A stretch of DNA of 64,000 bases, from NCBI GenBank assembly GCA_031458695.1, contig JAVKJW010000008.1, forward strand, positions 2,967 to 66,966, given 5' to 3'. Both the position numbers and the translations under genes were made by a program. Below, piece by piece: positions 10,946 to 30,562 of this stretch. The DNA comes from Candidatus Thermofontivivens primus. GTDB taxonomy: Bacteria; Sysuimicrobiota; Sysuimicrobiia; Sysuimicrobiales; Thermofontiviventaceae. The notes beneath the pieces are model-generated. The model searched no databases, had not been told where the DNA came from, and saw nothing but the letters and a program-made list of their open reading frames with translations. The stretch's first letter is position 1, and each line of letters opens with the position of its first letter.

Positions 10946-10962
10946 TGTATGCAGGTATACAA
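10937..10962. promoter_or_regulatory. palindromic GntR-type operator candidate (TTGTATAC-N10-GTATACAA)
   Basis: Exact inverted repeat that fits the GntR-family nGT-N-ACn half-site rule. A third palindrome, TCGTATACGA, lies at 11001-11010. Confidence 0.45.
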
Positions 10963-10985
10963 ACACAAAGGCAAGGTCGTTACGT

Positions 10986-11270: not shown

Positions 11271-11341
11271 TCCCTCTCCAGATGTAGCGTATATGTGTGG
11301 ACCGACCAGAGGTTTACTTAAGGTGACAGGAGGGAGCAGAG

Positions 11342-14248: not shown

Positions 14249-15018
14249 CCCCCTGACCACTTCCAGTACCGCACCCTGAAACCGTGGCCTTCCACCACCA
14301 GGGATGCAATATAGCCGGGGACGGGGGTGAATTCCCAGAAGGTCCAACGCAAGAGTTCTTGTGGATCCCCTTCGACATCGACCAAGTGGGCAGGTTCCCC
14401 TTGGGCCAGCGAGACGGTGAAATGCCGAAATGAGGAGAAAAGCCCGACACCCCTCGCCTTGACGTACGCTTCCTTCCGTGTCCAGCACGTAAAGAATGCC
14501 TTCTTCCTGGCTCTCTCTGGGATTTCGTTCAGCATGGCCACCTCCCGGGGGGAGAAGAACCGGCGGGCGAGCTGTTCCACCGGGACCCCCTCACGAATGC
14601 GTTCAAGGTCAATCCCCACCGCCCGTCCTCTGGCCACAGCGTAAATGGCTACTCCATGGGAGTGGGAAAGGTTGAAACGGAGGCCGATGGAATTGAAAGG
14701 AGGTGCCAGCTCAGGTTTCCCATAAGGGTTATAGGAGAATCGCAATGCGCGAGGTTCGGCACCGATGTACCGGCTCAGGATCATCCGGAGGATGGCACGG
14801 GCCACCTGAGCGCGGCCCCGATTGGGAGAGGATGAGAGACGGGCGACCTGTTCGCATTCAATGGGACCTAAGGCTTGGTAGAAGTGGTTCAGATCTCCTG
14901 GTGAAAGGTTGAGCGAGGCGCGCCAGACATGGACCTCCTCCTGTGGGAGGACGAGATCCGGTGGAGCCTGAGACCATATGGCCTGCGAGGAAGGACGGGG
15001 GTCGCCCAAGGGAATCAC
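14197..15018 (-). CDS. 4-prime-phosphopantetheinyl transferase, Sfp type
   Basis: Contains YNPYGKPEL, GIDLERI and FFTCWTRKEAYVKARG, the three PPTase motifs. Confidence 0.8.
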   Translation of the reverse strand: MIPLGDPRPSSQAIWSQAPPDLVLPQEEVHVWRASLNLSPGDLNHFYQALGPIECEQVARLSSSPNRGRAQVARAILRMILSRYIGAEPRALRFSYNPYGKPELAPPFNSIGLRFNLSHSHGVAIYAVARGRAVGIDLERIREGVPVEQLARRFFSPREVAMLNEIPERARKKAFFTCWTRKEAYVKARGVGLFSSFRHFTVSLAQGEPAHLVDVEGDPQELLRWTFWEFTPVPGYIASLVVEGHGFRVRYWKWSGGWNRVSPGEGARAGGHP

Positions 15019-15119
15019 CTCGGTCCCATCTTATCCTCAGTTTCACCATCACGCAAGAAGATCTAGGAGGTTTTTCGGGGCTCTCTCAAGAAAAAATCAG
15101 ACATCTACAGGAGGTACTG

Positions 15120-16892
15120 ATGGTTGTCCGGAGTCTTGTCAAACCGAGTACGTACTTTGATTCGGTGACCTTGATGCTCGTGCAGCGGGAGGTACGCGAG
15201 CTCCCCGGGGTGCACGAGGCAGGGGTGGTCATGGGGACTGAGGTGAATAAGCAGCTGCTCCGGGATGCTGGTTTGCTCCTCCCGGAGGCAGAAGCCGCCA
15301 AGCCGGATGATTTGATTCTCGTTGTGCGCGCGGAGAGCGAGGAAGCAGCAGCTCGTGCGCTGGCACATGCAGAGGAATTGCTCCTAGAGCGCCACCGGGC
15401 TCCCCTCCTCCCCACAGAGGCCTATCGTCCCAAAACCCTCTCCTCTGCTCTGCGCATGTTGGAAGGGGCAAATCTGGCGCTCATCTCGGTCCCTGGGCGT
15501 TTCGCTGGGGGCGTGGCACGGGATGCGCTCCAGGCAGGGCTCCACGTGATGCTCTTCAGCGATAACGTTCCAATGGAGGAGGAAATCGAGCTGAAACGCC
15601 TTGCCGCCTCCCAGGGACTCCTCCTCATGGGGCCAGACTGCGGCACGGCAATCCTCGGGGGAGCAGCGCTTGGTTTTGCCAACCGCGTACGCCGTGGGTC
15701 CATTGGCATCGTTGGTGCAGCAGGAACTGGGATCCAGGAGGTAGCCTCCCTGATCCATCACGCTGGGGCAGGCATCTCCCATGCCATTGGGACCGGGGGG
15801 CGGGATCTCAGCACGGCGGTTGGGGGTGTGACGGCGATGCAAGCGTTGACCGCTCTCGCGGCGGATCCTAGCACCCGTGTCATTGTGTTCCTCTCCAAAC
15901 CCCCCGCCCCTGAGGTCGCGGGAAGGATCCTGCACCTTGCCCGCACCATTCCAAAACCCGTGGTGGTGGATTTTATCGGAGCCAGGATTCCAGCGGAGGA
16001 AGGTCTCTATGGGGCGGAGACTCTAGAGGATGCTGCTCGGATTGCAGTGGAGCTTGCTACAGGATCGTCCCCGCGCTGGCCTGAGTGGATTGCCCTTCCT
16101 GCCCAGGAAGCTACCCGCCTCGCCCCTTCACAGAAATATGTGCGAGGACTGTATAGTGGAGGCACCCTCTGCTACGAGGCCCTTGTGCTCCTCGAGCAAT
16201 ACGTCGGCCCTGTCTTCTCCAACACACCCCTCGACCCCCTCATGAGGCTGGAGTCTCCCCACCACAGCCGGGACCACACCGTAATCGATATGGGCAGCGA
16301 TGAGTTCACCGTGGGCCGGCTTCACCCCATGCTCGACCCGGAGCTCCGGATCCAGAGGTTGCTCCGGGAGGCAGAGGACCCGCAGGTTGCGGTGATCCTC
16401 CTGGACGTTGTGCTCGGGTACGGTGCCCACCCCGACCCAGCCAGGGATCTCGCCCCTGCCATCCGGGAAGCCCGCGCCCGCGCGCAGGCCCGAGGCCGGT
16501 GGCTCCCTGTGGTGGTTCCGGTTGTGGGGACCGATGAGGATCCACAAGGGTACCAATCTCAGGTTCAGATGTTGGTCGAAGCGGGAGCGTTGGTGCAGCG
16601 CAGCAATGCCCAGGCAGTGCGGCTGGCGGGTTTGATTGCGGAAGCAGCGGGGAGTAGGGGGAGTCCGCGCCTCCTCGCCGAGATGCCCGTAACCCCAATG
16701 GAGGAACCACCCCCGGATGTCAGGAGAATTCTTCCCCTACTCGCTTCCTCGCCCCGCGTGGTCAACGTGGGCCTCGAGGGCTTCACCCAAAGCCTTGTCT
16801 CACAGGGTGTTCCAGTCATCCACATGGACTGGCGGCCACCGGCCGGCGGCAAGAAAGAGCTGATCGATCTGCTCGATAAATTAAACGCGTAA
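15120..16892 (+). CDS. fdrA: FdrA-family protein (succinyl-CoA-synthetase-like; AllF/FdrA homolog)
   Basis: MVVRSLVKPSTYFDSVTLM, ALISVPG, MLFSDNV, LLMGPDCGTAI, GIVGAAGTGIQE and AIGTGGRDLS are colinear with E. coli FdrA as recalled. ATG 15120 follows AGGAGG. Confidence 0.85.
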   Translation: MVVRSLVKPSTYFDSVTLMLVQREVRELPGVHEAGVVMGTEVNKQLLRDAGLLLPEAEAAKPDDLILVVRAESEEAAARALAHAEELLLERHRAPLLPTEAYRPKTLSSALRMLEGANLALISVPGRFAGGVARDALQAGLHVMLFSDNVPMEEEIELKRLAASQGLLLMGPDCGTAILGGAALGFANRVRRGSIGIVGAAGTGIQEVASLIHHAGAGISHAIGTGGRDLSTAVGGVTAMQALTALAADPSTRVIVFLSKPPAPEVAGRILHLARTIPKPVVVDFIGARIPAEEGLYGAETLEDAARIAVELATGSSPRWPEWIALPAQEATRLAPSQKYVRGLYSGGTLCYEALVLLEQYVGPVFSNTPLDPLMRLESPHHSRDHTVIDMGSDEFTVGRLHPMLDPELRIQRLLREAEDPQVAVILLDVVLGYGAHPDPARDLAPAIREARARAQARGRWLPVVVPVVGTDEDPQGYQSQVQMLVEAGALVQRSNAQAVRLAGLIAEAAGSRGSPRLLAEMPVTPMEEPPPDVRRILPLLASSPRVVNVGLEGFTQSLVSQGVPVIHMDWRPPAGGKKELIDLLDKLNA

Positions 16893-16906
16893 GTCAGGGG
16901 GAGGGA

Positions 16907-18157
16907 GTGTGCGTGGATATTGACCAAGCAAACCAGCTCGCCGTCGAACGGATCCTCCAGAGCCAGCCTGTGCTCATTGGCGTTGCCCGTGCAGGAGAGG
17001 TCATTCCAGGGATGCACAAGAACTTGATCCTCCATGCGGGCCCGCCGATCGATTGGCCCCGCATGTCGGGACCTCTCCGGGGCGCGGTGATTGGGGGACT
17101 GATCTTTGAGGGCCTTGCCCGGGACGAACGCGAGGCGGTTGCGCTGATCGAGAGGGGAGAGGTTACATTCGCCCCCTGCCACCACCATCAGGCGGTCGGG
17201 CCCATGGCTGGTGTGACAACCGCATCAATGCCGGTGTACATCGTCGAGAACAAGACCTTTGGAAACTGCGCGTTCTCTGGTCTCAATGAGGGGTATGGGA
17301 AGGTGCTGCGGTACGGGGCGTACAGCGAGGATGTCCTCGCCAGGTTACGCTGGTTGCGCGATGTCTGCGCTCCCATCCTGGGGAAGGCGCTGGAGCTCGC
17401 CGGTGGGGTCGACATGAAAACCTTGATCGCCCAGCAACTCCAGATGGGCGATGAAGGTCACAACCGCAACAAAGCTGGATCGAGTCTCTTTGCCCGCCTC
17501 CTTGCCCCACACATCGTTCGTACCGGAGCGAAGACCGAGGATGTGGCGGCTGTGCTCACCTACCTGGCAGAGAACGACCTTGCCGTCCTCAACCCTGTCA
17601 TGGCTGCCTGCAAGGCCACCATGGATGCAGCCCACGGGATTGAGGGGAGCACGGTGGTTACGTGCATGGCCCGCAACGGCACCGACTTCGGGATCCGGGT
17701 GAGCGGGCTGGGGGACACTTGGTTTACGGCCCCCGCCGAGATCCCCGTGGGGTTGTTCTTCCCTGGTTTCCGCCAGGAGGATGCGAATCCTGACATTGGG
17801 GACAGCACCATCACCGAGACCGCCGGCATCGGTGCGTTTGCTATGGCTGCCGCCCCGGCCATCGTGAAGTTCGTGGGAGGCACCCCTCAGATGGCCCTGG
17901 AGTCCACCCTGGAGATGTACGAGATCACCGTGGCCGAGAACCCTCATTTTACCATACCTCAGCTGGACTTCCGGGGGACGCCCACAGGGATCGACATCCG
18001 GAAGGTCGTCAAGACCGGGATCACCCCTCGGGTGAATACGGGGATTGCGCACCGCCAGCCTGGAATCGGGCAGATCGGGGCCGGGCTGGTACGTCCACCT
18101 ATGGTCTGTTTCGAGGAGGCGTTGAGAGCATTCGCCGCCCGCATTGCAATGGGATGA
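16907..18157 (+). CDS. DUF1116-family protein (YlbE/AllG-like)
   Basis: GTG start after GGGGGAGGGAG. Contains HAGPP, GEVTFAPCHHHQAVGPMAGV, NEGYGKVLRYGAYSEDV and NTGIAHRQPGIGQIGAG. Confidence 0.8.
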   Translation: MCVDIDQANQLAVERILQSQPVLIGVARAGEVIPGMHKNLILHAGPPIDWPRMSGPLRGAVIGGLIFEGLARDEREAVALIERGEVTFAPCHHHQAVGPMAGVTTASMPVYIVENKTFGNCAFSGLNEGYGKVLRYGAYSEDVLARLRWLRDVCAPILGKALELAGGVDMKTLIAQQLQMGDEGHNRNKAGSSLFARLLAPHIVRTGAKTEDVAAVLTYLAENDLAVLNPVMAACKATMDAAHGIEGSTVVTCMARNGTDFGIRVSGLGDTWFTAPAEIPVGLFFPGFRQEDANPDIGDSTITETAGIGAFAMAAAPAIVKFVGGTPQMALESTLEMYEITVAENPHFTIPQLDFRGTPTGIDIRKVVKTGITPRVNTGIAHRQPGIGQIGAGLVRPPMVCFEEALRAFAARIAMG

Positions 18158-18256
18158 TGGGGGAGGAGCCCCAGCAAGTTCTCGTTTGCGCAAGATTTCG
18201 CCGGGACTCTGTTCTGAGGGTGCTAGACTCATCAACAAAAGGAAAGGAGGGAGAAG

Positions 18257-19093
18257 ATGGCCATGAAACCATTCGACATGAGCAAGTGCCGTGTCCTAGA
18301 CCTTTCCCAGAATTTCAGCATCGATTCGCCCCCATTTGCGTTCTACGAGGGCCCGAAGATCACCTGGGTCAAGAAAATCGCCTTTGAAGGGGTGAATGCC
18401 CAGCACATCTCCACCACTAACCACATCGCCACACACCTGGACTCGCCACTTCACTTCTACGACCCGGGTCCCGACATCTCCGGGATCCCCATTGAGCATC
18501 TCGTCGGCCCGGCCTGTATTGTGGACCTCCAACAGTTCGGGATTGGGGACTACGATATCTACGGACCCGAGCACTTCGAGCAGTGGGAGAAGAAGTACAA
18601 CATCAAGATCGAGCCGGGGGACATCCTGGTGATTCACACAGGCTACCATGCCTATTACAACGAGGATTGGTCGCCGCATACCCGGGAGGTTCATAAGGAC
18701 GCCCGCCCAGATCTTCCTAGGGCGTTCTTGCGACACCCTGGCCCTCGCGCGGAGTTCTGTGAGTGGGTCCTAGACCGGGGCATTCGTTGGTTGGCCATCG
18801 ATGCCATCAGCACGGACCACCCCTTCAACACGAAGGTCCGCACGGCCCGGCCGGACCTCATCCCTGAAGTGGAGAAGAAAATCGGGATGTCCATCGATGA
18901 GGCCTTCCCGTGGCCCCGCGACTACCAGGCGACCCATACCATGCTCTTCCCCAAGGGTGTCTTCCATGTGGAGAATGTGGGAGGGCACATCGATCTTATC
19001 CTGAATCAAAAGGTGTGGGTGGGCTGTTTCCCCTTCCGCTTCAAGGGAGGAGAGGCTGCGTTCTGCCGGTTCGTGGCCTTCGTGGAGGCGTAG
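18257..19093 (+). CDS. cyclase-family protein (kynurenine formamidase-like)
   Basis: HIATHLDSPLHF is the HxxTHxDxPxH metal motif of PF04199. Confidence 0.8.
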   Translation: MAMKPFDMSKCRVLDLSQNFSIDSPPFAFYEGPKITWVKKIAFEGVNAQHISTTNHIATHLDSPLHFYDPGPDISGIPIEHLVGPACIVDLQQFGIGDYDIYGPEHFEQWEKKYNIKIEPGDILVIHTGYHAYYNEDWSPHTREVHKDARPDLPRAFLRHPGPRAEFCEWVLDRGIRWLAIDAISTDHPFNTKVRTARPDLIPEVEKKIGMSIDEAFPWPRDYQATHTMLFPKGVFHVENVGGHIDLILNQKVWVGCFPFRFKGGEAAFCRFVAFVEA

Positions 19094-19100
19094 AGGGGAC

Positions 19101-19985
19101 TTACTCCTTTGCGTAGGGCTGGCCCAGCGCTTCGGGTTTTGCCAGGCCCCAACGGGTCCGGAACCACGGGGTGGAGATGAGGGCGAGGATGACGATGGTC
19201 GTCGCAAAGGGTACTGCCCTCCACACGTAGCGGGAGAGGATCCCTGGCAAGAGGAGCTCTGGGCTGAGAGAGAGCTGCCACGTCATCCCAAAGAGGAGGG
19301 CGCCCACGAGAAGGATCCAGGGGTTCCACATGGAGAAGAACACCAGGGCCAGGCTCACAAACCCCCAGCCCATGAGGAAGTTGTAGTTCCATACGGGGTT
19401 GTAGGAGAGCGTGTAGGTTGCGCCCGAGAGGCCTGCGAGCATGCCACCGAGGACGACGCAGAGGTACCTGGTGATTGCGACGTTGATCCCAGAGGCCTCT
19501 GCAGCCGCTGGGTTCTCTCCCACGGACCGGATCGCGAGTCCCAGGCCGGTGTGGTAGAGCAAGAGCCAGACCGCGACGACCAAGGCGAAGGCGAGGTAGA
19601 CGAACGGGGAAAGCCCGAAGATCGAGGGGATGCGCGGCATCCCCAAGGGCCCGGTGTAGGGGTTGCCAATGTATGTGGTCAGGCCGAAACTTAGGATCCA
19701 CAACCCCATCCCGCTCACCACCTGGTCTCCCCGCATTGTGATGGAGAAGAACCCGTGGGCAAGGCCGAGGAGACCACCGATGGCGAGACCGGCGAGGAAC
19801 CCCAACCCGTAACTGCCCGTCGTCTGCGCGGCGATGAAGGCGAGGGTTCCCCCAAACAGCATCAGGCCCTCTAGCCCCACGTTCAGGATGCCCGAGCGCT
19901 GATTAAGGAGTTCACCCAGGGCAGCGAGCAGGAAGATCGTCGAGGCTTCCAGGCTGCGGACAAGCAGCTCCCACATGGAGGTCAC
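19101..19985 (-). CDS. ABC transporter permease (BMP/nucleoside-type uptake system)
   Basis: Multi-TM protein, last gene of the minus-strand ABC operon. YufQ-like. Confidence 0.85.
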   Translation of the reverse strand: MTSMWELLVRSLEASTIFLLAALGELLNQRSGILNVGLEGLMLFGGTLAFIAAQTTGSYGLGFLAGLAIGGLLGLAHGFFSITMRGDQVVSGMGLWILSFGLTTYIGNPYTGPLGMPRIPSIFGLSPFVYLAFALVVAVWLLLYHTGLGLAIRSVGENPAAAEASGINVAITRYLCVVLGGMLAGLSGATYTLSYNPVWNYNFLMGWGFVSLALVFFSMWNPWILLVGALLFGMTWQLSLSPELLLPGILSRYVWRAVPFATTIVILALISTPWFRTRWGLAKPEALGQPYAKE

Positions 19986-21127
19986 CTCTCTGGAATCCCC
20001 GCGGAGACACGGGGTACTTCCTCGGTTGCTACCGGTCGCCAGACGATACGGAACTGGTAAAGGAAGTGAGAGGCAACAAAGGTCATCATGAGGAGCCCTA
20101 AGAGGGCGTAGTCAACCCCAAAGGGGAGATGGAACTGCCCCTGGGCGAATCGGGCCCCTAGGGAGAGACCGGCAAAGAGGAGGGCAATGGGGACGGCCCC
20201 GAGAGCGGTCCCGCGCGCGATGAGGCCGCAAATGATCCCGTAGAATGCGAGGTCTCCGTAGAAGCCGTAGTTTCCGGGGATCTTGTAGACGCCTGGCACA
20301 GCGGCGAAATAGTGGTATCCGGCGAGGCCTGCGAACGCGCCGCCAAGGAGGAAGACCAGCAGGGAGATGGCCACAGGGTTGATGCCAGCATAGCGGGCAG
20401 CGGCTGGGTTGAGGCCGAAGACACGGATCCTGTAACCCAGAGTTGTCTTCACAAAGAGGAAGTCAAGGAGCCCTGCCGCAACGAGGGCGAGCAGAGCGGT
20501 GAAGGGCACACCACGTATAAGCGGGGCGTACAGAGAAGGGGGGAGGTTGAAGCTCTCCCCTTCGCCTGTGGCGCTCATGAAGGGGCCTCCCTCTTTGATC
20601 ATGTAGGCCACAAGCCAGAAAAGGATAGAATTCAGCATCATCGTGACGAGAATCTCGTTGACGTGGAGCTTAGCGCGGAGGATCCCTGCAAATCCAGCAA
20701 GCGCAGCACCAGCGAGGGAAGCCCCCACGACCATGAGGAGGATGATCAGCCCGGGATGGAAGGGTGGATGGGAGAGCTCGCTCATCCGGAGCGCATAGGG
20801 AACCGCGAACGCCGCAAGGGCGCCCACGTAGACTTGGCCAGGCAGGCCAATGTTCCACAAGCCCGCACGCATAGGTACAAGGAAGGCGAAGGTACATAGC
20901 CAGAGGAAGATGGCACGGTGGATAGTGGCTTGGAGCCCATAGGGGTTGGCGAAGGCGTAGGAGAAGACGGCGCGGTAAGCTGAGAGGAAACCAGTCTCAG
21001 CAGGGAGGAAGAGGAAGCTCGAAAGGGCTAAAGCCAGGAGGATGGCCGGGAACGCAGTCAAAGCCGTATGCAGAGCAGGACGCGTGGGCCTCGCTTCTAG
21101 GGTGAGCTCGTACCGGCCGATCCTCAC
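19982..21127 (-). CDS. ABC transporter permease (BMP/nucleoside-type uptake system)
   Basis: Multi-TM protein, YufP-like. 4-nt overlap with the neighbouring genes. Confidence 0.85.
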   Translation of the reverse strand: MRIGRYELTLEARPTRPALHTALTAFPAILLALALSSFLFLPAETGFLSAYRAVFSYAFANPYGLQATIHRAIFLWLCTFAFLVPMRAGLWNIGLPGQVYVGALAAFAVPYALRMSELSHPPFHPGLIILLMVVGASLAGAALAGFAGILRAKLHVNEILVTMMLNSILFWLVAYMIKEGGPFMSATGEGESFNLPPSLYAPLIRGVPFTALLALVAAGLLDFLFVKTTLGYRIRVFGLNPAAARYAGINPVAISLLVFLLGGAFAGLAGYHYFAAVPGVYKIPGNYGFYGDLAFYGIICGLIARGTALGAVPIALLFAGLSLGARFAQGQFHLPFGVDYALLGLLMMTFVASHFLYQFRIVWRPVATEEVPRVSAGIPER

Positions 21128-22710
21128 GACACTCCAGCCTCCTCCCGCCGAAGGCCGGCCATCATCGCGCCCACGGTCTCCGCGTCAGCACCCTCTCGAG
21201 GGAGGATGGCAACGAACCGGCCTTCGTAGATCGGCGCGACCCAGTCGCTCAGGGAGAGGATCTCATCCAGGTCCTCGGAGATGAGCAGGACAGCGGCACC
21301 CCCAGCCTTCGCTTCAAGGAGCTTCCCTCGGAGGAAGGCTGTGGCCTCCACATCCAGCCCCTGGGTTGGGAGGTGGGCGATAAGGAGCTTTGGCTTTCGG
21401 GCGAGAACCCGGCCCACGATGAGTTTTTGCAAGTTGCCTCCGGAGAGGTGGCGAGCCTGGGCATACAGGTGGGGAGCCTTGACCCTGTAGTGGGAGAGGA
21501 TGTGCCGGGTCACCTTTTCCAACCCCGGATGATTGAACAACCCTCGCCGGGAGAACAGGGGGTCAAAGTGAAAGTTCAAGGCAGCGTTCTCCACGAGCGT
21601 GAGGGTTGCGACAGAGGCTATCTCGTACCGTTCCGCAGGGATATAGCCAATGCCCATACGCCATCGGTCAAGAGGCGAAAGCCAGGTTACGTCCCGGCCA
21701 TCGAAGAGGACCCTGCCAGATGCCGGAGGACGCAAGCCGGCCAGGACCTGGACGAGTTCCTCTTGACCATTCCCCGTGACGCCGGCGATTCCCAGGATTT
21801 CTCCCTCGTGGAGGGAAAAGGTGACCCCCCGGAGGGAGAGTACCCCCTTGTCGTTATAAGCGGAAAGGTGTTCCACACGGAGGAGAGGCCTGCCTTTCTC
21901 CACAAGCAGGTCTGAAATCGAGTAGGAGGAGATGTCCTGGCCAATCATGTGCTGGACGAGGAGTTGCTCTGTGGCCTCACAGGTTCGGAGACGCGCTACG
22001 ACCGTTCCCGACCTCAACACTGTGACCGTGTGGCTGATGGCTGTGACAATGGGGAGCTTGTGGGTGACAAGGATCACCGTGACCCCGTGGTCTTGGACAA
22101 GGGCTTGAAGGCTAGCCATGAGCGTTTTGACCTCTGGCGGGGTGAGCACAGAGGTTGGCTCGTCCAGGATCAGGATCTTCGCGCCGCCGTAGAGGGCTTT
22201 CAGGATCTCCACCCACTGCTTCTCCCCCTCAGAGAGCTGCCATACCTTAGCCCCGAGATCCACGGTGAAGCCGTAGCGGTGACAGAGTTCTTCTACCTCT
22301 CGCCGGATGGTCCGGAGGTTGAGAAATCCGCGCGTACCTGGATGCCCGAGGAGGATGTTCTCGAGCACCGAATGCGCCGAGACAAGCTTACGAGTCTGGT
22401 GGACCATGCTGATCCCCATGGCTAGGGCATCATGAGGAGACCTGAAGTGGACCCGCTGGCCCCTGAAGTAGAGTTGCCCCTCATCAGGCTGGAGGAGGCC
22501 GAACAAGATGTTCATGAGGGTGGTCTTCCCGGCACCGTTCTGGCCAAGGACCGCGTGGATCTCTCCTGCCTTCACATCGAGATCTACCCGATGGAGGGCG
22601 AGCACGCCAGGGAACCGTTTGGTAATCCCCCGTGCGGCGAGAAGAGGCTCTTCGGGTTCTGGGTGGGTGAAAGGGAACCTCACCACAAAAGTATACCTCC
22701 ACTCCGTCAT
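21124..22710 (-). CDS. ABC transporter ATP-binding protein, duplicated (two NBDs)
   Basis: Two Walker A sites (GQNGAGKTT and a second NBD). 528 aa, YufO-like. Confidence 0.9.
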   Translation of the reverse strand: MTEWRYTFVVRFPFTHPEPEEPLLAARGITKRFPGVLALHRVDLDVKAGEIHAVLGQNGAGKTTLMNILFGLLQPDEGQLYFRGQRVHFRSPHDALAMGISMVHQTRKLVSAHSVLENILLGHPGTRGFLNLRTIRREVEELCHRYGFTVDLGAKVWQLSEGEKQWVEILKALYGGAKILILDEPTSVLTPPEVKTLMASLQALVQDHGVTVILVTHKLPIVTAISHTVTVLRSGTVVARLRTCEATEQLLVQHMIGQDISSYSISDLLVEKGRPLLRVEHLSAYNDKGVLSLRGVTFSLHEGEILGIAGVTGNGQEELVQVLAGLRPPASGRVLFDGRDVTWLSPLDRWRMGIGYIPAERYEIASVATLTLVENAALNFHFDPLFSRRGLFNHPGLEKVTRHILSHYRVKAPHLYAQARHLSGGNLQKLIVGRVLARKPKLLIAHLPTQGLDVEATAFLRGKLLEAKAGGAAVLLISEDLDEILSLSDWVAPIYEGRFVAILPREGADAETVGAMMAGLRREEAGVS

Positions 22711-22859
22711 TCAGGGCGGAGAGGCCGTAGACGGAGAAGTTACAAGAGGGAGGGAGGCTCCTCCCGCTGTGGAGTACCATAGGCAGGAGGAGCCTCGGAC
22801 CCTCATGGAATGATCACCCTGGTGCAGGACCCAGCTGTGGGGTGGCGCCGGAACCCGCA

Positions 22860-24116
22860 TCACTTCAGGATGGTCATCCCCTCGAGATCGAAGTTGAACT
22901 TCCCAAGGAGCCATTCGTCAGAGGGCATCTGACGGGCTTTCTTCACCACCGTTCCCTTCGGGGGGATTGGGGTGTCCTTGAGCGCCAATCCCGTGCCGTT
23001 GCTCACAAAGGCGTGCTCGAAGAAGGGATCCCACTGGCCCTTCATCATCTGTTCCCTCCGCTGCGCCACGAGCTTGAGAATGGCCTCGGGGATGAGGGGT
23101 CGTGCTTTCGGGCTAATTGCATCGAGACCCACCTTATTGTTGTTCATGATGTCCACGGTCGGGACCACGGCGCCGTCCGCAAGGGTCATGGTGTCCCGCA
23201 GACCCAGGTAGAGAAGGGTCTTGGGGTTGCGGTTGCCGGCGAGATACTCCTTGATCATGTGCTCGTAGAGGACCTCCCAGCGGGTATCGAAGGAGACCGC
23301 AACGGTGTCAGTGCTCGACCAGCCGTAAAAACCGACCACGTCCATGTCCTTGCCCACGAACCAAATCTTCCGCTCTTGCGCTACGTCCAGGGGGGAGCCA
23401 GAATCGGTCTGCTGGGTGATCACGTCCACCTTATACTGGCTCACAAGTGTCTGGGCCACCTCCCGTTCTTCGGTGGGTTTATACCAGTCCCCCACGTATT
23501 TCACATAGACGTTAACCTTTTTGCCCAAGACCTTGGCCGCATCCTGGACACCCAGGAAGAAACCGGCTTGGCGGCGCATCACCTGGACGTTGGGGAAGGC
23601 AGAGACGATGCCGATGTTCCCGGTACGGGTCAGGGCTCCCGCGATCAGGCCTTCGAGATAGAGGGCCTGGTACTGGCGTGGGAAGAAGCGGATGAAGTTC
23701 CGCTTCCTCGTCAAGTCGCTCGCAATGACGGAGGCGAAGTAGACGTTCGGGTACTGGTCTGCAATGGTAGCCAGAGGAAGGCCGATGAACTCAGCATTCC
23801 CCACCACGATGTTGGCACCCTGGGCGATAAGCTCCTTGGCGTAGGGAACGGTTGCATCGGGCCCGACCTCCTCGCGGTAGACGTATCGCACGTTGGGATA
23901 CTTCTGGGCGATGCGTTGTGCCGCACGGTGGTGGGCTCCAGACCAGGTTGTCCCCTTAATAATGCTGAAGTGCAGGATCGCCAGCGTCAGGGGCTTCTGA
24001 GGCGCAGCGGTTGCAGGGGCCCACAGCGTGGCGCCAGCAACCAGAACAAGGGCAACGAGCAGGGCAAAGGCCCGATGCAGGATCCGCACGAACTGGGAAC
24101 GATCTCGTTCGCTCAT
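22860..24116 (-). CDS. BMP-family ABC transporter substrate-binding protein
   Basis: Signal/TM N-terminus, then a PF02608-like sequence (LTLAILHFSIIKGTTWSGAHHRAAQRIAQKYPNVRYVY...). Confidence 0.8.
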   Translation of the reverse strand: MSERDRSQFVRILHRAFALLVALVLVAGATLWAPATAAPQKPLTLAILHFSIIKGTTWSGAHHRAAQRIAQKYPNVRYVYREEVGPDATVPYAKELIAQGANIVVGNAEFIGLPLATIADQYPNVYFASVIASDLTRKRNFIRFFPRQYQALYLEGLIAGALTRTGNIGIVSAFPNVQVMRRQAGFFLGVQDAAKVLGKKVNVYVKYVGDWYKPTEEREVAQTLVSQYKVDVITQQTDSGSPLDVAQERKIWFVGKDMDVVGFYGWSSTDTVAVSFDTRWEVLYEHMIKEYLAGNRNPKTLLYLGLRDTMTLADGAVVPTVDIMNNNKVGLDAISPKARPLIPEAILKLVAQRREQMMKGQWDPFFEHAFVSNGTGLALKDTPIPPKGTVVKKARQMPSDEWLLGKFNFDLEGMTILK

Positions 24117-24130
24117 AGCATCCCCCCTAC

Positions 24131-25111
24131 CTAAGGATTAGGTGAGCACAACACGGTGCAGTTGCTTGCGGTATTCTCCAGGGAATCTGGAAAATCCTGC
24201 GCATGTTTCCTGAGGATCGCCCCCGCAGCAAGGAGGAAGCCCGCGAGCATGTCGGCACCAGAGGTCTCTCCATAGGCCATTACCTTTCGAACGGCCGGGG
24301 TAATGGCTGTAGGGTCGCCTCTAAGGGTCACGTCGAGCAAGCGATGCCAAGCTTCGCTGGCCTCGCCCTCCCTTGCCGCTGCAAGATATGCCGCGCTGAT
24401 CCGGTGGGTCTGGGAGGGGCCTATGCTGGTGATGGCCTCGCGAAGGGTTTCATGGCTTTCTCTAGGGAGGACTGCAAGCGCGAGGAGGACCCCAGCGAGG
24501 ACATCGTCGCCTGAGGGGGTGAGTCCTGGGCCAAGGCCTGCAAGCCCTTTTGCTGCTCTTGCAGCGAGGGCAGGGGAATCCCTCTCCAGTGCTTCCTGGA
24601 GCATCCTCATCGCTTCCCGGGCCCTGACCAGCATAGGGCTGAACGCACCCCCGGCTTCCCTGGTATCTTCGAGGATCCTCGCAAGGCTCTCTGTGGGTGC
24701 CTCTGTAGCGAGGGTCGCTCGCACGGCAGCGAGGCCCTGGAGGAGGCGCTGGGGCACGAAGCTGTTCCAGGGCGTGTAGCGTGCTTCCCAGATCGTCGCT
24801 TTGTCCCATGCGATCGTGAGATCGGAGCCGAAATCGGAGCCGAAATGGATCGTTTCCCTCGTCACGACGAGGGGGGTACCTGGGGTGAGATGGCGAAAGA
24901 CGGCGGGATCCGCGACCACAACGTTGAGCGGACCATTGCCCAATTCTACGGACACGAAGGCAACGATCTGGCCGCTAAGCTCTGCGTAGCAACTCCGGGA
25001 GAAGCTGGCGATCACCGTCCCCCGGTGGGAGAGCTGGAGAATGCCGTGGGCCCGCCGGCTGAGGGAAAGGGCATGGAGGAGCGTGCTGGGGGGAAGGGTG
25101 TTATGCTCCAT
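24131..25111 (-). CDS. DUF2877-family protein (YlbF/AllH-like)
   Basis: Contains a TPSGDDVLAG motif. Start chosen at MEHNTL (ATG 25111), giving an 11-nt overlap with the coxS stop. Family call is from memory. Confidence 0.6.
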   Translation of the reverse strand: MEHNTLPPSTLLHALSLSRRAHGILQLSHRGTVIASFSRSCYAELSGQIVAFVSVELGNGPLNVVVADPAVFRHLTPGTPLVVTRETIHFGSDFGSDLTIAWDKATIWEARYTPWNSFVPQRLLQGLAAVRATLATEAPTESLARILEDTREAGGAFSPMLVRAREAMRMLQEALERDSPALAARAAKGLAGLGPGLTPSGDDVLAGVLLALAVLPRESHETLREAITSIGPSQTHRISAAYLAAAREGEASEAWHRLLDVTLRGDPTAITPAVRKVMAYGETSGADMLAGFLLAAGAILRKHAQDFPDSLENTASNCTVLCSPNP

Positions 25112-25673
25112 ATCCAGAACGTAAGCGCTGCGCAGCGTCCCGGACGGCGTCGATGATCCCCTGGTACCCTGTACAGCGGCAGAGGTTTCCGGCGAGGACC
25201 TCGCGGATCTGTTCATCGCTGGGCTCTGGGTTCTCTCGCAGGAAGGCGAGGGTGCTCATGAGGAACCCAGGGGTACAGAACCCGCATTGCAGGGCGTGGT
25301 GGTCCCGGAATGCTTCTTGGAGAGGATGGAGGCGCTCCGGTGTTCCAAGCCCCTCTACGGTCGTGATCTCAGCCCCATCAGCCTGGACGGCGAAGAGGAG
25401 ACAGCTGCGCACGGCCTGGCCATCGAGGAGGATGGTGCAGGCTCCACAGACCCCATGTTCACAGCCGACGTGGGTGCCCGTCAGCCCGAGTTCGTGTCGG
25501 AGGAAGTCCACCAGGGTCATACGGACATCTACGGTGGAGGTATACTCCACCCCGTTCACCCGCAGCCTGATCTCCTTGCGCGTCCACAAGGGGGGAAGGG
25601 AGACCTTAGCTTGCTTGGACCTTCTGGCCTGCGGGGTTCTCCGCGATGCATTTGTCTGGGCTCTCCTCTTCAT
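25101..25673 (-). CDS. (2Fe-2S)-binding small subunit of xanthine-dehydrogenase/CO-dehydrogenase family (CoxS-like)
   Basis: CEHGVCGACT and CGFCTPGF...CRCTGY cluster motifs. A ~30-aa N-extension suggests the true start may be an internal alternative codon. Confidence 0.85.
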   Translation of the reverse strand: MKRRAQTNASRRTPQARRSKQAKVSLPPLWTRKEIRLRVNGVEYTSTVDVRMTLVDFLRHELGLTGTHVGCEHGVCGACTILLDGQAVRSCLLFAVQADGAEITTVEGLGTPERLHPLQEAFRDHHALQCGFCTPGFLMSTLAFLRENPEPSDEQIREVLAGNLCRCTGYQGIIDAVRDAAQRLRSGYGA

Positions 25674-26545
25674 GCTCCCTCCCTCTGTTTGAACCTTTCC
25701 GCAGCTAGGCGAAGGGCACGCCCGGCGAGGATGCCCGCGACTTCCTTGCGGTAGGTTGCTGAGGCATGGATGTCGCTGTGGGGATCCAGGCGAGCGGCCA
25801 CGATGCGCGCGATTTCCCCAAGCGTGGAATCGTCAAGGGGCCTCCCGGTAGCCGCTTCTTCGGCTTCGGGGAGCCGTACCGGCACAGGGCCCACGCCTGT
25901 GAACCCCAAGCGGGCTTCCGTGCATCGTTCCCCATCCATCTGGACCATCGCCGCCACCCCGACGAGCGCATAGTCCCCATGCCGCCGGGCAACTTCAAGG
26001 AATGCCGTCCCGTATGTCCGGTGAACGGGGAAGCGAACCTCGACCAGCAGCTCCTCGGGTGCGAGGGCCGTCTGCAGGAAGGAGACGAAGAACTCCTCAG
26101 GACGGAGGACACGCGTCCCTTCGAGCCCTCGAACAACGAGCTGCGCTCCCAGGACAAGGGTAACGACAGGGAGCTCCGCAGCAGGGTCTGCGTGCGCGAG
26201 GCTCCCGCCTACCGTCCCCCGGTTACGGATCTGGGGATGGCCGATGTACCGGACTGCTTCGGCAAGGAGAGGAAGTTTCTCCCGCACGAGGCTGGAGAGC
26301 TCGACAGCTCGCTGGCGGGTCATCGCCCCGATGGAAACCGTCGCGTCCTCGTCATGGATGTAGGAGAGTTCGCGCACGCGATTCAGGTCGATGAGGACCG
26401 AGGGGCGCGCCAGGCGCATGTTGAGCAAAGGGACGAGGCTCTGGCCGCCGGCCAGGGGTTTTCCCTCCTCCCTGAAGGTGTGCAGGAGGACAAGGGATTC
26501 CTCAACGGTCTCAGGTGCGGTGTACTGGAAGGGAGCTGGTTTCAT
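25670..26545 (-). CDS. FAD-binding medium subunit of XDH/CODH family (CoxM-like)
   Basis: MKPAPFQYTAPETVEESL...AGGQSLVPLLNMRLA. ATGA overlap with coxL at 26542-26545. Confidence 0.9.
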   Translation of the reverse strand: MKPAPFQYTAPETVEESLVLLHTFREEGKPLAGGQSLVPLLNMRLARPSVLIDLNRVRELSYIHDEDATVSIGAMTRQRAVELSSLVREKLPLLAEAVRYIGHPQIRNRGTVGGSLAHADPAAELPVVTLVLGAQLVVRGLEGTRVLRPEEFFVSFLQTALAPEELLVEVRFPVHRTYGTAFLEVARRHGDYALVGVAAMVQMDGERCTEARLGFTGVGPVPVRLPEAEEAATGRPLDDSTLGEIARIVAARLDPHSDIHASATYRKEVAGILAGRALRLAAERFKQREGA

Positions 26546-28970: not shown

Positions 28971-30341
28971 TCACCGTTTGAGATTCTCCTCAGGAGGCCG
29001 GAGTTCCCGCCATGGGTTGACCCGCTCGTACGCAGCTGCAGCTCGGAGGAGGGTGACCTCGTCCAGGGGACGGGCGACGAGCTGGATGCCGAGGGGGAGG
29101 CCACTGGGCGAGAGGCCAGCTGGGACCGTCATCGCCGGGAAGCCAAGAAAGGTAAATGGGAGGTTGAAGATCGGATCCCCGGTGGACGCGAGTCCTTCCG
29201 GTGCAGGTCCCGGGGTCGTAGGCGTCACCAAGAGGTCGACCTCCGCGAAGAGCCCCTTCATGGCCTGGATGCATGCAGTGCGAGTCTCACGAGCTCGGAG
29301 ATAGGAGACTGCAGGAATCCGGAGGCCCTCCTCGATCATCGCGCGGATCTTGGGGCCATACTCGTCGGAGCGGTCCCGGAACCACCTCTGGTGGAAGGCT
29401 GCTGCCTCGGCGTACATGATGGTCCGGTGGGCCTCTAGGCAATCGTCAAACTCAGGGGGGAGGTGGATCTCACGCACCTCCATCCCCGCTTCCTCAAGGA
29501 GCGGGAGGGCACGGCGGTAAGCGCTCACCATCTCCGGGGTGGATCGCTCAAGGAAGAACCGGTCTGGAACCCCTACACGCAGACCAGAGGCAGGCCTCTC
29601 GCACGCTGAAACGCATCCTTCCAGCGTCTCCTCAAGGCAGGTCGTATCGTAGCCATCAGGGCCAGCTGTGGCCTCCAGGAGGATTGCGACATCCTGAACG
29701 GTTCTCCCCATGGGGCCTGGGTGGTCAAGAGTCCAGCTCACAGGAACCACTCCGTGCCGGCTGATCCTTCCATACGAGGGTTTGAGACCAACGATGCCGC
29801 AGAAGGCAGCTGGGCGAAGGATCGAGCCTGCCGTCTGGGTTCCAAAAGCACCTGGGCACATGCGCGCGGCCACGGCCGCCGCCGACCCGCTACTCGAACC
29901 CCCAGGAGTATGGCGAAGGTTCCAAGGATTACGGGTCGGGCCAGGGTCAAAGGTGGCGAATTCAGTCGTGACAGTTTTCCCGAGGATAATCGCCCCTTTG
30001 GACTTCAGCCGGGCGACGACGGTAGCATCAAAAGCGGGAAGAAATCCTGCAAGGATGCGAGAGCCAGCGGAAGTTTCCCATCCTGCTGTATAGAAGATGT
30101 CCTTCACGCCGATGGGCACGCCATGCAAAGGGCCCAGGGGCCCCTCGCGGGCAAGACGGCGGTCCAGCTCCTCGGCCTCGACCAAGGCCTCTTCGGGTCG
30201 CAGACGTGCCCATGCCTGGATCTGCGGCTCAAGCCTCTCGATCCTGTCCAGCAACGAGCGGACGAGATCCCGGGAGGAGAGTTGCCGCGAAGCAATGGCC
30301 TTTGCCGCCTCGTGAAGGGACAGGTCCCATGGATCACGCAT
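28971..30341 (-). CDS. amidase (amidase-signature family)
   Basis: GGSSSGSAAAVAA and the GVPIGVKD signature. ATG 30341 (MRDPWDL) is preceded by GGAGAGGAAG. Confidence 0.85.
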   Translation of the reverse strand: MRDPWDLSLHEAAKAIASRQLSSRDLVRSLLDRIERLEPQIQAWARLRPEEALVEAEELDRRLAREGPLGPLHGVPIGVKDIFYTAGWETSAGSRILAGFLPAFDATVVARLKSKGAIILGKTVTTEFATFDPGPTRNPWNLRHTPGGSSSGSAAAVAARMCPGAFGTQTAGSILRPAAFCGIVGLKPSYGRISRHGVVPVSWTLDHPGPMGRTVQDVAILLEATAGPDGYDTTCLEETLEGCVSACERPASGLRVGVPDRFFLERSTPEMVSAYRRALPLLEEAGMEVREIHLPPEFDDCLEAHRTIMYAEAAAFHQRWFRDRSDEYGPKIRAMIEEGLRIPAVSYLRARETRTACIQAMKGLFAEVDLLVTPTTPGPAPEGLASTGDPIFNLPFTFLGFPAMTVPAGLSPSGLPLGIQLVARPLDEVTLLRAAAAYERVNPWRELRPPEENLKR

Positions 30342-30562
30342 CGGCTTCCTCTCCGATCGTTTGATGGATCTATTCATTCCCCATCGAGATCCCTGTTTCC
30401 TCTTCACCCCTCCCACAAGATCGTCTCCTTCGAACTTCCTAGGTCTCTCAAGTTGAAGCCCGATGTTTACTCCCGTACACACCTGAGGTACGAATCGATT
30501 CTCTGCTCGATTCCATTGTGTGTGTTGGGATCCTACCATAAGGAGGGTGGAGGTGGAGAGAG

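What the first reader, a model, noticed from the sequence alone, without database searches (positions are those of the whole stretch)
14943..25111. Oxamate-carbamoyltransferase-like trio (FdrA, DUF1116, DUF2877) split across two convergent operons and embedded with XDH-family CoxLMS, amidase, cyclase and a BMP nucleoside-type ABC importer
In E. coli, fdrA-ylbE-ylbF (allFGH) together form oxamate carbamoyltransferase of the allantoin pathway (from memory). Here FdrA+DUF1116+cyclase are on the plus strand (15120-19093). DUF2877 sits on the minus strand inside the operon amidase-coxL-coxM-coxS-DUF2877-BMP SBP-ATPase-permease-permease (30341 down to 19101). No carbamate kinase, allantoinase or ureidoglycolate genes are in the window. 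This suggests a variant purine/ureide-like or N-heterocycle degradation island in which the XDH-family enzyme, the amidase and the FdrA complex cooperate.
Basis: partly seen in the sequence, partly recalled or inferred. Interest (0 to 1): 0.55.

Follow-up and report, generated by a model that had tools for sequence, protein, structure and literature searches.

The report
Heterocycle-breakdown cluster with split AllFGH enzyme
This is a real, uncharacterised gene cluster, conserved across several bacterial phyla, that joins a molybdenum hydroxylase, a ring-opening hydrolase and a relative of the three-part enzyme oxamate carbamoyltransferase, probably to break down a urea-containing ring compound such as a nucleobase.

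Summary
Pfam and NCBIfam confirm FdrA/AllF (15120-16892), AllG/DUF1116 (16907-18157) and a cyclase-family hydrolase (18257-19093) on the plus strand. The converging minus-strand operon is amidase, coxL, coxM, coxS, AllH/DUF2877 (24131-25111), Bmp binding protein, ATPase and two permeases (30377 down to 19101). The window has no carbamate kinase and no allantoin genes.

The source is an Armatimonadota MAG. The link between these genes is not chance. Of 87 AllH loci, 31 carry a CoxL-family gene. Of those 31, 20 also carry the cyclase (5 of the other 56) and none carries carbamate kinase (18 of the other 56). In Anaerolineales the same set forms one same-strand operon: coxM-coxS-amidase-allF-allG-cyclase-coxL-allH.

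In the window's own clade allH always follows coxS. There allF-allG lie 0 to 40 kb away on the same contig.

The window's AllG belongs to a clade separate from both E. coli AllG and YahG. CoxL has the quinoline-oxidoreductase-type active-site loop, not the CO-dehydrogenase one.

Best reading: a catabolic module for a cyclic ureide. The steps would be import, hydroxylation, ring opening, phosphorolytic release of carbamoyl phosphate, then amide hydrolysis. The substrate is unproven. Weak clues lean towards a pyrimidine (uracil to barbiturate to ureidomalonate).

It is a new variant of a known kind, of moderate interest.

The parts
15120..16892 (+). allF-like gene (FdrA family, 590 aa). It is the succinyl-CoA-synthetase-alpha-like subunit of the predicted carbamoyltransferase.
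   Evidence: Pfam CoA_binding plus Ligase_CoA. NCBIfam FdrA subfamily, 565 bits against a cut-off of 433. It is 38% identical to E. coli AllF and 46% to YahF over the full length. The family motif TVGR-HPM-DP is kept. AGGAGG lies 7 nt before the ATG.
16907..18157 (+). allG-like gene (DUF1116, 416 aa).
   Evidence: Pfam AllG, 327.6 bits. It is 52% identical to E. coli AllG and 53% to YahG. In the neighbour-joining tree it falls in a clade whose members all have a type-A CoxL and a cyclase nearby.
18257..19093 (+). Cyclase-family metal-dependent amidohydrolase (278 aa). It is the predicted ring-opening step.
   Evidence: Pfam Cyclase, 119 bits. The metal-binding motif H-x-x-T-H-x-D-x-P-x-H reads HIATHLDSPLH. 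The nearest solved relatives are a cyclase-family protein, kynurenine formamidases and isatin hydrolases. It co-occurs with cox-linked allH in 20 of 31 loci against 5 of 56.
19101..21127 (-). Two ABC permease genes (19101-19985 and 19982-21127).
   Evidence: Pfam BPD_transp_2 for both. Adjacent genes overlap by 4 nt.
21124..22710 (-). ABC ATPase with two nucleotide-binding domains.
   Evidence: Pfam ABC_tran, two stretches. The best NCBIfam match is the ATPase of a BMP-type 'B6' ABC transporter, below its cut-off.
22860..24116 (-). Bmp/PnrA-family substrate-binding protein of the importer.
   Evidence: Pfam Bmp, 90 bits. The nearest solved structure is AtzT (6pi5), which co-purified with guanine and binds 2-hydroxyatrazine (PMC6834077).
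24131..25111 (-). allH-like gene (DUF2877, 326 aa), encoded as the fourth gene of the coxLMS operon.
   Evidence: Pfam AllH, 94 bits. The motifs GLGPGLTPSGDD and GETSGADM are shared with E. coli AllH and YahE. Its start overlaps the end of coxS by 11 nt. It lies directly after coxS in every relative of the clade. The AF2 model has pLDDT 89 and no PDB fold match.
25101..25673 (-). coxS-like subunit with two [2Fe-2S] clusters.
   Evidence: Pfam Fer2 plus Fer2_2.
25670..26548 (-). coxM-like FAD-binding subunit.
   Evidence: Pfam FAD_binding_5 plus CO_deh_flav_C.
26542..28932 (-). coxL-like molybdopterin subunit (796 aa) of a hydroxylase in the Qor/Kdh/form-II CoxL clade.
   Evidence: Pfam Ald_Xan_dh_C plus MoCoBD_1 and MoCoBD_2. 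The nearest solved relatives are Mycobacterium CoxL, quinoline 2-oxidoreductase and 6-hydroxypseudooxynicotine dehydrogenase. The active-site loop is PYRGAGR, not AYRCSFR, and the catalytic Glu is kept in GAGEAG.
28971..30377 (-). Amidase-signature amidase, the first gene of the minus-strand operon. The start may instead be at 30341.
   Evidence: Pfam Amidase, 379 bits. It falls below every NCBIfam equivalog cut-off. The GGSSSGS motif is present. After GatA, the nearest solved relatives are malonamidase E2 and then AtzE. It is present in 7 of 31 cox-linked loci.

Best explanation
The two converging operons encode one catabolic module for a ring compound that contains a urea group (a cyclic ureide, probably a free nucleobase or a close analogue).

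Proposed steps:
1. The Bmp-type ABC importer takes the substrate up.
2. The three-subunit molybdenum hydroxylase CoxLMS adds an oxo group at a ring C-H next to nitrogen.
3. The cyclase-family metal hydrolase opens the now activated ring to a linear N-acylurea.
4. The AllF-AllG-AllH complex, a relative of E. coli oxamate carbamoyltransferase, cleaves the carbamoyl-N bond with phosphate. The products are carbamoyl phosphate and an amide.
5. The amidase hydrolyses that amide to an acid plus ammonia.

Shown: gene identities, operon structure, conserved linkage of the parts across phyla, and the distinct subfamily status of AllG.

Inferred: the order of steps, the chemistry of each step by homology, and the substrate.

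The most specific candidate route is a phosphorolytic variant of the oxidative pyrimidine pathway: uracil or thymine, to barbiturate, to ureidomalonate, to carbamoyl phosphate plus malonamate, to malonate. I give that route only about 0.2-0.25.
For: E. coli AllFGH needs all three proteins and converts the N-acylurea oxalurate plus phosphate into oxamate plus carbamoyl phosphate (PMC11326118). The window's AllH keeps the motifs it shares with E. coli AllH and YahE.

Linkage:
- 31 of 87 AllH loci carry a CoxL-family gene within 10 kb.
- The cyclase is present in 20 of those 31 against 5 of 56 (Fisher 8e-8).
- The amidase is present in 7 of 31 against 2 of 56.
- Anaerolineales loci L014, L016, L018 and L019 have coxM-coxS-amidase-allF-allG-cyclase-coxL-allH on one strand with tight spacing.
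- A second architecture with an XdhA-like hydroxylase occurs in Ignavibacteria, Chloroflexia, Anaerolineae and Elusimicrobia.

The window's AllG clade consists only of loci with a type-A CoxL plus a cyclase.

In relatives where allH-coxLMS seemed to lack allFG, allF-allG are on the same contig, about 15 kb (L089/L090) and about 40 kb (L088/L091) away.

Substrate clues:
- The nearest solved relative of the Bmp protein binds guanine and hydroxyatrazine.
- The Anaerolineales operons add an NCS2 permease that scores best against the uracil-permease model, and a cytosine-deaminase-like amidohydrolase between coxL and allH.
- The closest non-GatA solved relative of the amidase is malonamidase E2.
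- A dicarboxylate-type CoA-transferase III recurs next to the cyclase.
Against: - There is no biochemical or expression evidence for any step.
- The loci are phylogenetically related, so the Fisher tests overstate independence.
- The amidase, the Bmp importer, the CoA-transferase and the cytosine-deaminase-like gene are each present in only some of the clusters.
- All the substrate clues fall below the curated cut-offs of their families.
- No carbamate kinase is linked to any cox-type cluster. The fate of the carbamoyl phosphate is therefore open, and the product might not be carbamoyl phosphate at all.
- AllH diverges much faster than its neighbours. Between the window and L002 it is 57% identical, against 83-98% for the other eleven proteins. 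It sits with coxLMS rather than with allFG, so its role in the trio here is not proven.
Confidence: 0.6

Rival explanations
1. The trio is a true oxamate carbamoyltransferase at the end of a purine route. In this reading the Mo enzyme is a xanthine or urate-forming dehydrogenase, the cyclase and amidase replace the allantoin enzymes and lead to oxalurate (for example through parabanate), and AllFGH makes oxamate plus carbamoyl phosphate.
For: The only characterised AllFGH acts on oxalurate. OXTCase was historically induced by parabanic acid, a cyclic ureide that opens to oxalurate (reference list of PMC3364942). AtzT, the nearest solved relative of the Bmp protein, binds guanine. A PucR-family regulator sits next to an allH-yahF-yahG-cyclase-carbamate kinase cluster in a Peptococcaceae MAG.
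Against: The window's AllG is no closer to E. coli AllG (52%) than to YahG (53%) and forms its own clade. There are no allB, allC, allD, allE or allK homologs in the window. The CoxL belongs to the Qor/Kdh/CoxL clade and scores far below every XDH equivalog cut-off. The NCS2 permease in sister operons scores higher on the uracil model than on the xanthine model (206 against 127 bits).
Confidence: 0.15
2. AllF and AllG work here as a CoA-dependent enzyme (an acyl-CoA synthetase-like or transferase-like enzyme). The Mo-hydroxylase acts on a heteroaromatic acyl-CoA, as 4-hydroxybenzoyl-CoA reductase or furoyl-CoA dehydrogenase do. No carbamoyl phosphate is made.
For: AllF keeps the CoA_binding and Ligase_CoA domains. 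CoA-handling genes recur in these clusters: CoA-transferase III next to the cyclase in Armatimonadota and Anaerolineales, and thiolase-like genes in type-B clusters. Carbamate kinase is absent from all 31 cox-linked loci.
Against: Purified E. coli AllFGH was assayed with carbamoyl phosphate and oxamate, and the discussion of that paper read here mentions neither CoA nor ATP as a requirement. The CoxL is much closer to Qor, Kdh and CODH (518-575 bits) than to 4-hydroxybenzoyl-CoA reductase (310 bits). The CoA genes can equally be explained as downstream handling of a dicarboxylate product.
Confidence: 0.1
3. In this lineage the DUF2877 protein is an accessory or maturation factor, or a fourth subunit, of the Mo-hydroxylase and not part of an AllFG complex. 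The closeness of allFG and the cyclase to the cox operon in this window would then be a coincidence of local gene order.
For: allH directly follows coxS in every member of the window's clade. It never sits next to allFG there, and allFG can be 15-40 kb away. It evolves much faster than the catalytic genes. In E. coli, AllH was substoichiometric in the purified complex. The fold has no solved relative.
Against: Outside this clade allH is usually adjacent to allF (26 of 87 loci), including loci with no cox genes at all, and E. coli needs it for OXTCase. In Anaerolineales allFG lie inside the cox operon itself. The window shows no second allH that could serve allFG.
Confidence: 0.1

Closest known systems
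E. coli oxamate carbamoyltransferase AllF-AllG-AllH (allFGHK operon; Kim & Kim 2024)
   Same: It has the same three protein families, with full-length similarity for AllF (38%) and AllG (52%). The AllH motifs GxGPGLTPSGDD and GxTSGxD are conserved.
   Different: allH is separated from allFG and encoded inside a Mo-hydroxylase operon. There is no carbamate kinase and there are no allantoin genes. AllG belongs to a separate clade. AllH aligns only over its C-terminal ~110 residues in BLAST.
E. coli yahEFG-yahI-yahJ cluster (paralogous trio with an unknown substrate)
   Same: It has the same three families and is as similar as, or slightly more similar than, the All proteins (AllF 46%, AllG 53%). 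The type-B cox-linked clusters share the yah gene order H-F-G.
   Different: The yah cluster has a carbamate-kinase-like gene and an amidohydrolase but no Mo-hydroxylase and no cyclase. The window's AllG is not in the YahG clade.
Quinoline 2-oxidoreductase (Qor), 6-hydroxypseudooxynicotine dehydrogenase (Kdh) and form-II CoxL molybdenum hydroxylases
   Same: They share the three-subunit L/M/S architecture, the AYRG-type active-site loop and the catalytic Glu. Scores against the solved structures are 518-575 bits.
   Different: The substrate is unknown. The operon carries allH, a Bmp importer and an amidase instead of the quinoline or nicotine pathway genes.
Oxidative pyrimidine pathway of Rhodococcus and Nocardia (uracil/thymine dehydrogenase, barbiturase, ureidomalonase). 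This comparison rests on established biochemistry recalled from memory. No gene-level paper was found in the library.
   Same: The logic is the same: hydroxylation of a nucleobase, hydrolytic ring opening to an N-acylurea, then cleavage of the ureide, with an amidase-signature enzyme in the pathway.
   Different: The ring opener here would be a cyclase-family enzyme rather than an AtzD/barbiturase-family enzyme. The ureide would be cleaved with phosphate by AllFGH rather than by hydrolysis to urea. None of this is tested.
allFGHK clusters next to bmpA-nupABC and amidases in nitrifier MAGs (PMC12625717)
   Same: allFGH is co-located with a Bmp-type ABC importer and amidase-signature amidases.
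   Different: Those clusters keep carbamate kinase and have biuret/triuret hydrolases. They have no Mo-hydroxylase or cyclase.

Membership tests
AllFGH oxamate carbamoyltransferase (OXTCase) | All three protein families are present: AllF (FdrA), AllG (PF06545) and AllH (PF11392). | tested here: met
   Pfam and NCBIfam hits are above their cut-offs. Motifs are shared with the E. coli proteins.
AllFGH oxamate carbamoyltransferase (OXTCase) | Orthology to E. coli AllG/AllF, that is, the same clade rather than a paralog. | tested here: not met
   AllG is 52% identical to AllG and 53% to YahG. The neighbour-joining tree puts the window in a third clade made up only of loci with a type-A CoxL plus a cyclase. 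The tree is a rough distance tree without support values.
AllFGH oxamate carbamoyltransferase (OXTCase) | Operon context allF-allG-allH-allK (carbamate kinase) next to allantoin genes. | tested here: not met
   allH is on the other strand inside the cox operon. No AllK, YahI or AllB-E homolog is found in the 64 kb. Carbamate kinase is absent from 31 of 31 cox-linked loci.
AllFGH oxamate carbamoyltransferase (OXTCase) | Catalysis of oxalurate + Pi <-> oxamate + carbamoyl phosphate. | not testable with these tools
   This needs an enzyme assay.
XDH/CoxLMS molybdenum hydroxylase family | L, M and S subunits carrying Moco, FAD and two [2Fe-2S] domains, plus the catalytic Glu. | tested here: met
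   Domain hits. The Glu in GAGEAG aligns with the Glu of CODH and Qor.
Form-I aerobic CO dehydrogenase | Active-site loop AYRCSFR with the Cu-binding Cys. | tested here: not met
   The window has S-PYRGAGR aligned to vAYRCSFR of 1zxi and 1n5w. The Cys is absent and the loop is one residue shorter, as in Qor (AYRGVGF). No coxD, coxE, coxF or coxG genes are in the operon. The NCBIfam name 'CODH_aero_grp5' is therefore not taken as a function.
Bona fide xanthine dehydrogenase (XdhABC / PucCDE) | Score above the equivalog cut-offs for XDH subunits. | tested here: not met
   CoxL scores 450 against 780 (XdhA) and 345 against 784 (PucD). CoxM and CoxS are also below their cut-offs.
Cyclase-family metal-dependent hydrolases (PF04199; kynurenine formamidase, isatin hydrolase) | Pfam match plus the His/Asp metal-binding motif HxxxHxDxPxH. 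| tested here: met
   119 bits. HIATHLDSPLH is read in the translation. It falls below the arylformamidase equivalog cut-off (37.5 against 223 bits), so it is not KynB itself.
Amidase-signature family | Pfam Amidase over the full length, plus the Gly/Ser-rich signature with the catalytic Ser-Ser and the upstream Lys. | tested here: met
   379 bits, positions 1-445 of 445. GVKDIF and GGSSSGSAAAV are read in the translation. No equivalog cut-off is reached, so the substrate is not assigned.
Bmp/PnrA-type ABC importer | Bmp binding protein, a fused double ATPase and two BPD_transp_2 permeases in one operon. | tested here: met
   The gene order is conserved in L001, L002, L007 and L087.

The most novel reading that the evidence does not exclude
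The CoxLMS enzyme is the uracil/thymine dehydrogenase (EC 1.17.99.4), for which the library searched here held no gene-level report. The cluster would then be a previously unrecognised variant of the oxidative pyrimidine pathway that conserves energy or nitrogen. In it a cyclase-family enzyme replaces barbiturase, and a third AllFGH subfamily cleaves ureidomalonate with phosphate to carbamoyl phosphate plus malonamate. The DUF2877 subunit, encoded in the hydroxylase operon, would couple the two enzymes.
Probability: 0.2. Interest if true: 0.75.

Novelty: new variant of a known kind. Interest (0 to 1): 0.55.

Why it matters
AllFGH was recognised as an enzyme only in 2024 and has one known substrate, oxalurate. 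This cluster shows that the family has at least one further subfamily, spread over several phyla, that is tied to a molybdenum hydroxylase and a ring-opening hydrolase rather than to allantoin genes and carbamate kinase. That makes a concrete set of 5-12 genes available for finding the substrate of an uncharacterised N-heterocycle pathway. It could also give functions to a large group of 'form-II CoxL' enzymes that are routinely mislabelled as CO dehydrogenases, and it offers a route into what the DUF2877 subunit does.

Tried and rejected
1. AllH as a known fold. The AF2 model is confident (pLDDT 89), but Foldseek against the PDB gave no hit at E <= 1e-3. A profile search of PDB sequences gave nothing better than E 0.3. 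There is no support for an XdhC-like or kinase-like fold.

2. 'allH-coxLMS exists without allFG'. This first seemed true from the 10-kb flanks of L004, L087, L088 and L089. It was rejected after AllG homologs turned up on the same contigs 15-40 kb away.

3. The AccD-AccA fusion next to the cyclase as a malonyl-CoA decarboxylase. It passes the AccA equivalog cut-off and nearly reaches the AccD one, so it is probably the housekeeping carboxyltransferase. I do not use it as evidence.

4. CO dehydrogenase. Rejected on the active-site loop.

5. A phosphohistidine equivalent in AllF. The alignment with E. coli SucD is too gapped around His246 to decide, so I make no claim.

6. Promoter and terminator scans gave no more sites than shuffled sequence. 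Rfam gave no hit in the window.

7. Literature searches for the genes of uracil dehydrogenase, barbiturase and ureidomalonase, and for FdrA together with XDH and cyclase, found nothing relevant.

8. An exact look-up of the window's AllG in the contig collection found nothing. The source was instead identified through a 98%-identical AllH.

Full report
**What is in the window.**

On the plus strand, three genes run from 15120 to 19093. They encode an FdrA/AllF-like protein (CoA_binding plus Ligase_CoA; NCBIfam FdrA subfamily, 565 bits against a cut-off of 433), an AllG/DUF1116 protein (PF06545, 328 bits) and a cyclase-family hydrolase (PF04199).

On the minus strand, nine genes run from about 30377 down to 19101:
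- an amidase-signature amidase
- coxL, coxM and coxS
- AllH/DUF2877 (PF11392, 94 bits against a cut-off of 25)
- a Bmp binding protein
- a double ABC ATPase
- two permeases

Most neighbouring genes overlap by 4-11 nt or are separated by fewer than 40 nt. allH starts inside the last codons of coxS. The two operons end 7 nt apart. The allF start at 15120 has an AGGAGG site in front of it.

The window has no homolog of carbamate kinase (AllK, YahI), AllB, AllC, AllD, AllE or YahJ (tblastn). Pfam scans of the larger ORFs in the rest of the window show unrelated functions; several smaller ORFs were not scanned.

**Source.**

The closest AllH homolog (98% identical) is on a 58.9-kb contig of an Armatimonadota MAG, GCA_031432455.1, with identical gene order.

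**Is the trio a real AllFGH?**

AllF and AllG align over their full length with both E. coli paralog sets. AllF is 38% identical to AllF and 46% to YahF. AllG is 52% identical to AllG and 53% to YahG.

AllH is much more diverged: BLAST aligns only about 110 C-terminal residues at 35-36%. It does keep the two motifs that are invariant in 39 homologs and shared with E. coli AllH and YahE, namely GxGPGLTPSGDD and G(E/H)TSGxD.

An AlphaFold model of AllH is confident (pLDDT 89). It has an N-terminal beta domain and a C-terminal helical domain, but no solved structure resembles it.

A neighbour-joining tree of AllG gives three groups:
- E. coli AllG with proteobacterial loci that carry carbamate kinase
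- E. coli YahG with a mixed group
- a third clade containing the window, in which every member has the window-type CoxL and a cyclase nearby

So this is a member of the AllFGH protein family but not an ortholog of the characterised oxamate carbamoyltransferase.

**Is the link to the Mo-hydroxylase, cyclase and amidase more than chance?**

I collected 87 loci that encode an AllH homolog: 80 from a scan of one genome per species, the rest from metagenome look-ups. I labelled their ORFs by BLAST against the window and E. coli proteins. Thirty-one loci have a CoxL-family gene within the 10-kb flanks.

| Neighbouring gene | Cox-linked loci (31) | Other loci (56) | Fisher p |
|---|---|---|---|
| Cyclase | 20 | 5 | 8e-8 |
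| Amidase | 7 | 2 | 0.009 |
| Carbamate kinase | 0 | 18 | 1.7e-4 |

The loci are related to each other, so these p-values are only indicative. The architectures, however, speak for themselves.

In four Anaerolineales MAGs the genes form one same-strand operon: coxM-coxS-amidase-allF-allG-cyclase-coxL-(amidohydrolase)-allH. A second architecture is allH-allF-allG-cyclase-coxM-coxS-coxL, with a different, XdhA-like large subunit that is about 30% identical to the window's. It appears in Ignavibacteria, Chloroflexia, Anaerolineae and Elusimicrobia.

The recurring core is therefore AllFGH plus a cyclase plus a Mo-hydroxylase. The amidase and the transporter are variable additions.

**The split is a feature of the lineage.**

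In the window's own clade, coxL-coxM-coxS-allH is an invariant four-gene unit (L001-L004, L007, L008, L010, L022, L087-L089). At first several of these loci seemed to lack allFG.

Look-ups placed allF-allG about 15 kb (L089/L090) and about 40 kb (L088/L091) from allH. In both genomes they head an operon: allF-allG, a family-5 binding-protein ABC system, then a cyclase and a CoA-transferase III.

So both units are kept in these genomes, and allH travels with the hydroxylase. AllH also evolves far faster than its neighbours. Between the window and L002 it is 57% identical, against 83-98% for the other eleven proteins.

**What kind of hydroxylase?**

CoxL scores above the cut-off of an NCBIfam 'exception' model that is named for aerobic CO dehydrogenase. 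Its closest solved relatives are Mycobacterium CoxL, quinoline 2-oxidoreductase and 6-hydroxypseudooxynicotine dehydrogenase.

In the residue-level alignments the active-site loop reads PYRGAGR. That matches Qor (AYRGVGF) and Kdh (AYRAPGR). It lacks the Cu-binding Cys and the extra residue of the CODH loop AYRCSFR. The catalytic Glu is kept. All xanthine dehydrogenase equivalog models score far below their cut-offs.

It is a heterocycle-type hydroxylase of unknown substrate. It is neither a CO dehydrogenase nor a canonical XDH.

**Mechanism.**

The one characterised AllFGH cleaves an N-acylurea (oxalurate) with phosphate, giving carbamoyl phosphate and an amide. Cyclase-family enzymes are metal-dependent amidohydrolases that open lactams or remove formyl groups (isatin hydrolase, kynurenine formamidase). 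The window's enzyme has an intact metal motif. Mo-hydroxylases add an oxo group next to a ring nitrogen.

Put together, the most economical pathway has five steps: import, hydroxylation, ring opening to an N-acylurea, phosphorolysis to carbamoyl phosphate plus an amide, and hydrolysis of the amide by the amidase.

The gene identities and their linkage are shown. The order and chemistry of the steps are inferred.

**Substrate.**

No evidence settles this. The clues are all weak:
- The nearest solved relative of the Bmp protein, AtzT, binds the free base guanine and 2-hydroxyatrazine (PMC6834077).
- The Anaerolineales operons carry an NCS2 permease that scores best on the uracil-permease model (206 bits against 127 for xanthine permease, both below cut-off).
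- The same operons carry a cytosine-deaminase-like amidohydrolase between coxL and allH (246-271 bits, below the cut-off of 438).
- After GatA, the nearest solved relative of the amidase is malonamidase E2.
- A dicarboxylate-type CoA-transferase III recurs next to the cyclase.

These fit a phosphorolytic variant of the oxidative pyrimidine pathway. That route would run from uracil to barbiturate, to ureidomalonate (the next higher homologue of oxalurate), to carbamoyl phosphate plus malonamate, and then to malonate. I rate it at about 0.2-0.25.

A purine or parabanate route ending in oxalurate remains possible. So does a CoA-dependent reading, given the thiolase-like and CoA-transferase genes in related clusters.

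**Comparison with what is known.**

The literature held in the library describes allFGH in E. coli allantoin catabolism (PMC11326118, PMC12535856). It also describes allFGHK beside bmpA-nupABC and ureide amidases in nitrifier MAGs (PMC12625717). No paper was found that links FdrA, DUF1116 or DUF2877 with a Mo-hydroxylase and a cyclase.

I therefore file this as a new variant of a known kind. It is a third AllFGH subfamily embedded in an uncharacterised heterocycle-degradation module that spans several phyla.

**Verdict.**

Interest is moderate at 0.55. The cluster is well defined and gives a testable route to a new substrate for a newly discovered enzyme class, and to a function for a group of mis-named CoxL enzymes. 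The substrate and the role of AllH are still open.

Noticed in passing
window 51-12226: A second uncharacterised cluster lies about 4 kb upstream of allF. It comprises an Opp/Dpp-type ABC importer (51-5330), two ORFs with no Pfam hit (5317-7466), an Asp/Glu/hydantoin racemase (7291-8169), an S-Me-THD-like/DUF917 protein (8016-9272), DUF1177 (9241-10197), AroM (10167-10859) and a PEP-mutase/isocitrate-lyase family protein (11342-12226). It could be another hydantoin-type catabolic set.
   Followed up: partly
window 24131-25111 compared with L002 10001-11011: AllH diverges far faster than every neighbouring gene. It is 57% identical between the window and L002, against 83-98% for the other eleven proteins of the cluster.
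   Followed up: partly
window 16740-16883 (AllF residues 541-588): The last ~48 residues of the window's AllF match the first ~50 residues of E. coli YahG (39% identity, E 6e-7). This small segment is therefore encoded at the end of allF in some systems and at the start of allG in others.
   Followed up: no
window 26542-28932: NCBIfam model NF040766 ('CODH_aero_grp5', type 'exception') would name this CoxL an aerobic CO dehydrogenase (1059 bits against a cut-off of 950). The active-site loop, however, lacks the CODH Cys motif. The name is probably wrong as a function.
   Followed up: yes
L017 1627-3626; L077 7614-9613; L030 16916-18814: Type-B clusters (XdhA-like hydroxylase) carry a conserved pair of genes inside or next to the allFGH genes: a thiolase-like protein and an ORF of 235-276 aa with no Pfam hit.
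   Followed up: partly
L004 16306-20209; L087 15194-19006; L090 15756-19674; L091 15871-17882: In Armatimonadota relatives the cyclase is paired with a CoA-transferase III gene that overlaps or abuts it. An AccD-AccA fused carboxyltransferase is usually next to them, an NCS2 permease is present once (L089/L090) and a malate synthase once (L091). The window's cyclase lacks this partner.
   Followed up: partly
window 30606-32278: These are ThiW (thiazole transporter) and ThiM (hydroxyethylthiazole kinase) genes, divergent from the amidase. No TPP riboswitch, and no other Rfam family, reaches the gathering score anywhere in the window.
   Followed up: no
window 32263-34611 and 42750-48007: A family-B DNA polymerase is conserved next to the cluster in L001 and L002. 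Further downstream are a 1065-aa molybdopterin oxidoreductase and a multihaem cytochrome c.
   Followed up: no
window 13421-15018: An Sfp-type 4'-phosphopantetheinyl transferase and a short-chain dehydrogenase/KR lie divergent from allF. They are conserved in L001 and L002, and no carrier protein is visible nearby.
   Followed up: no
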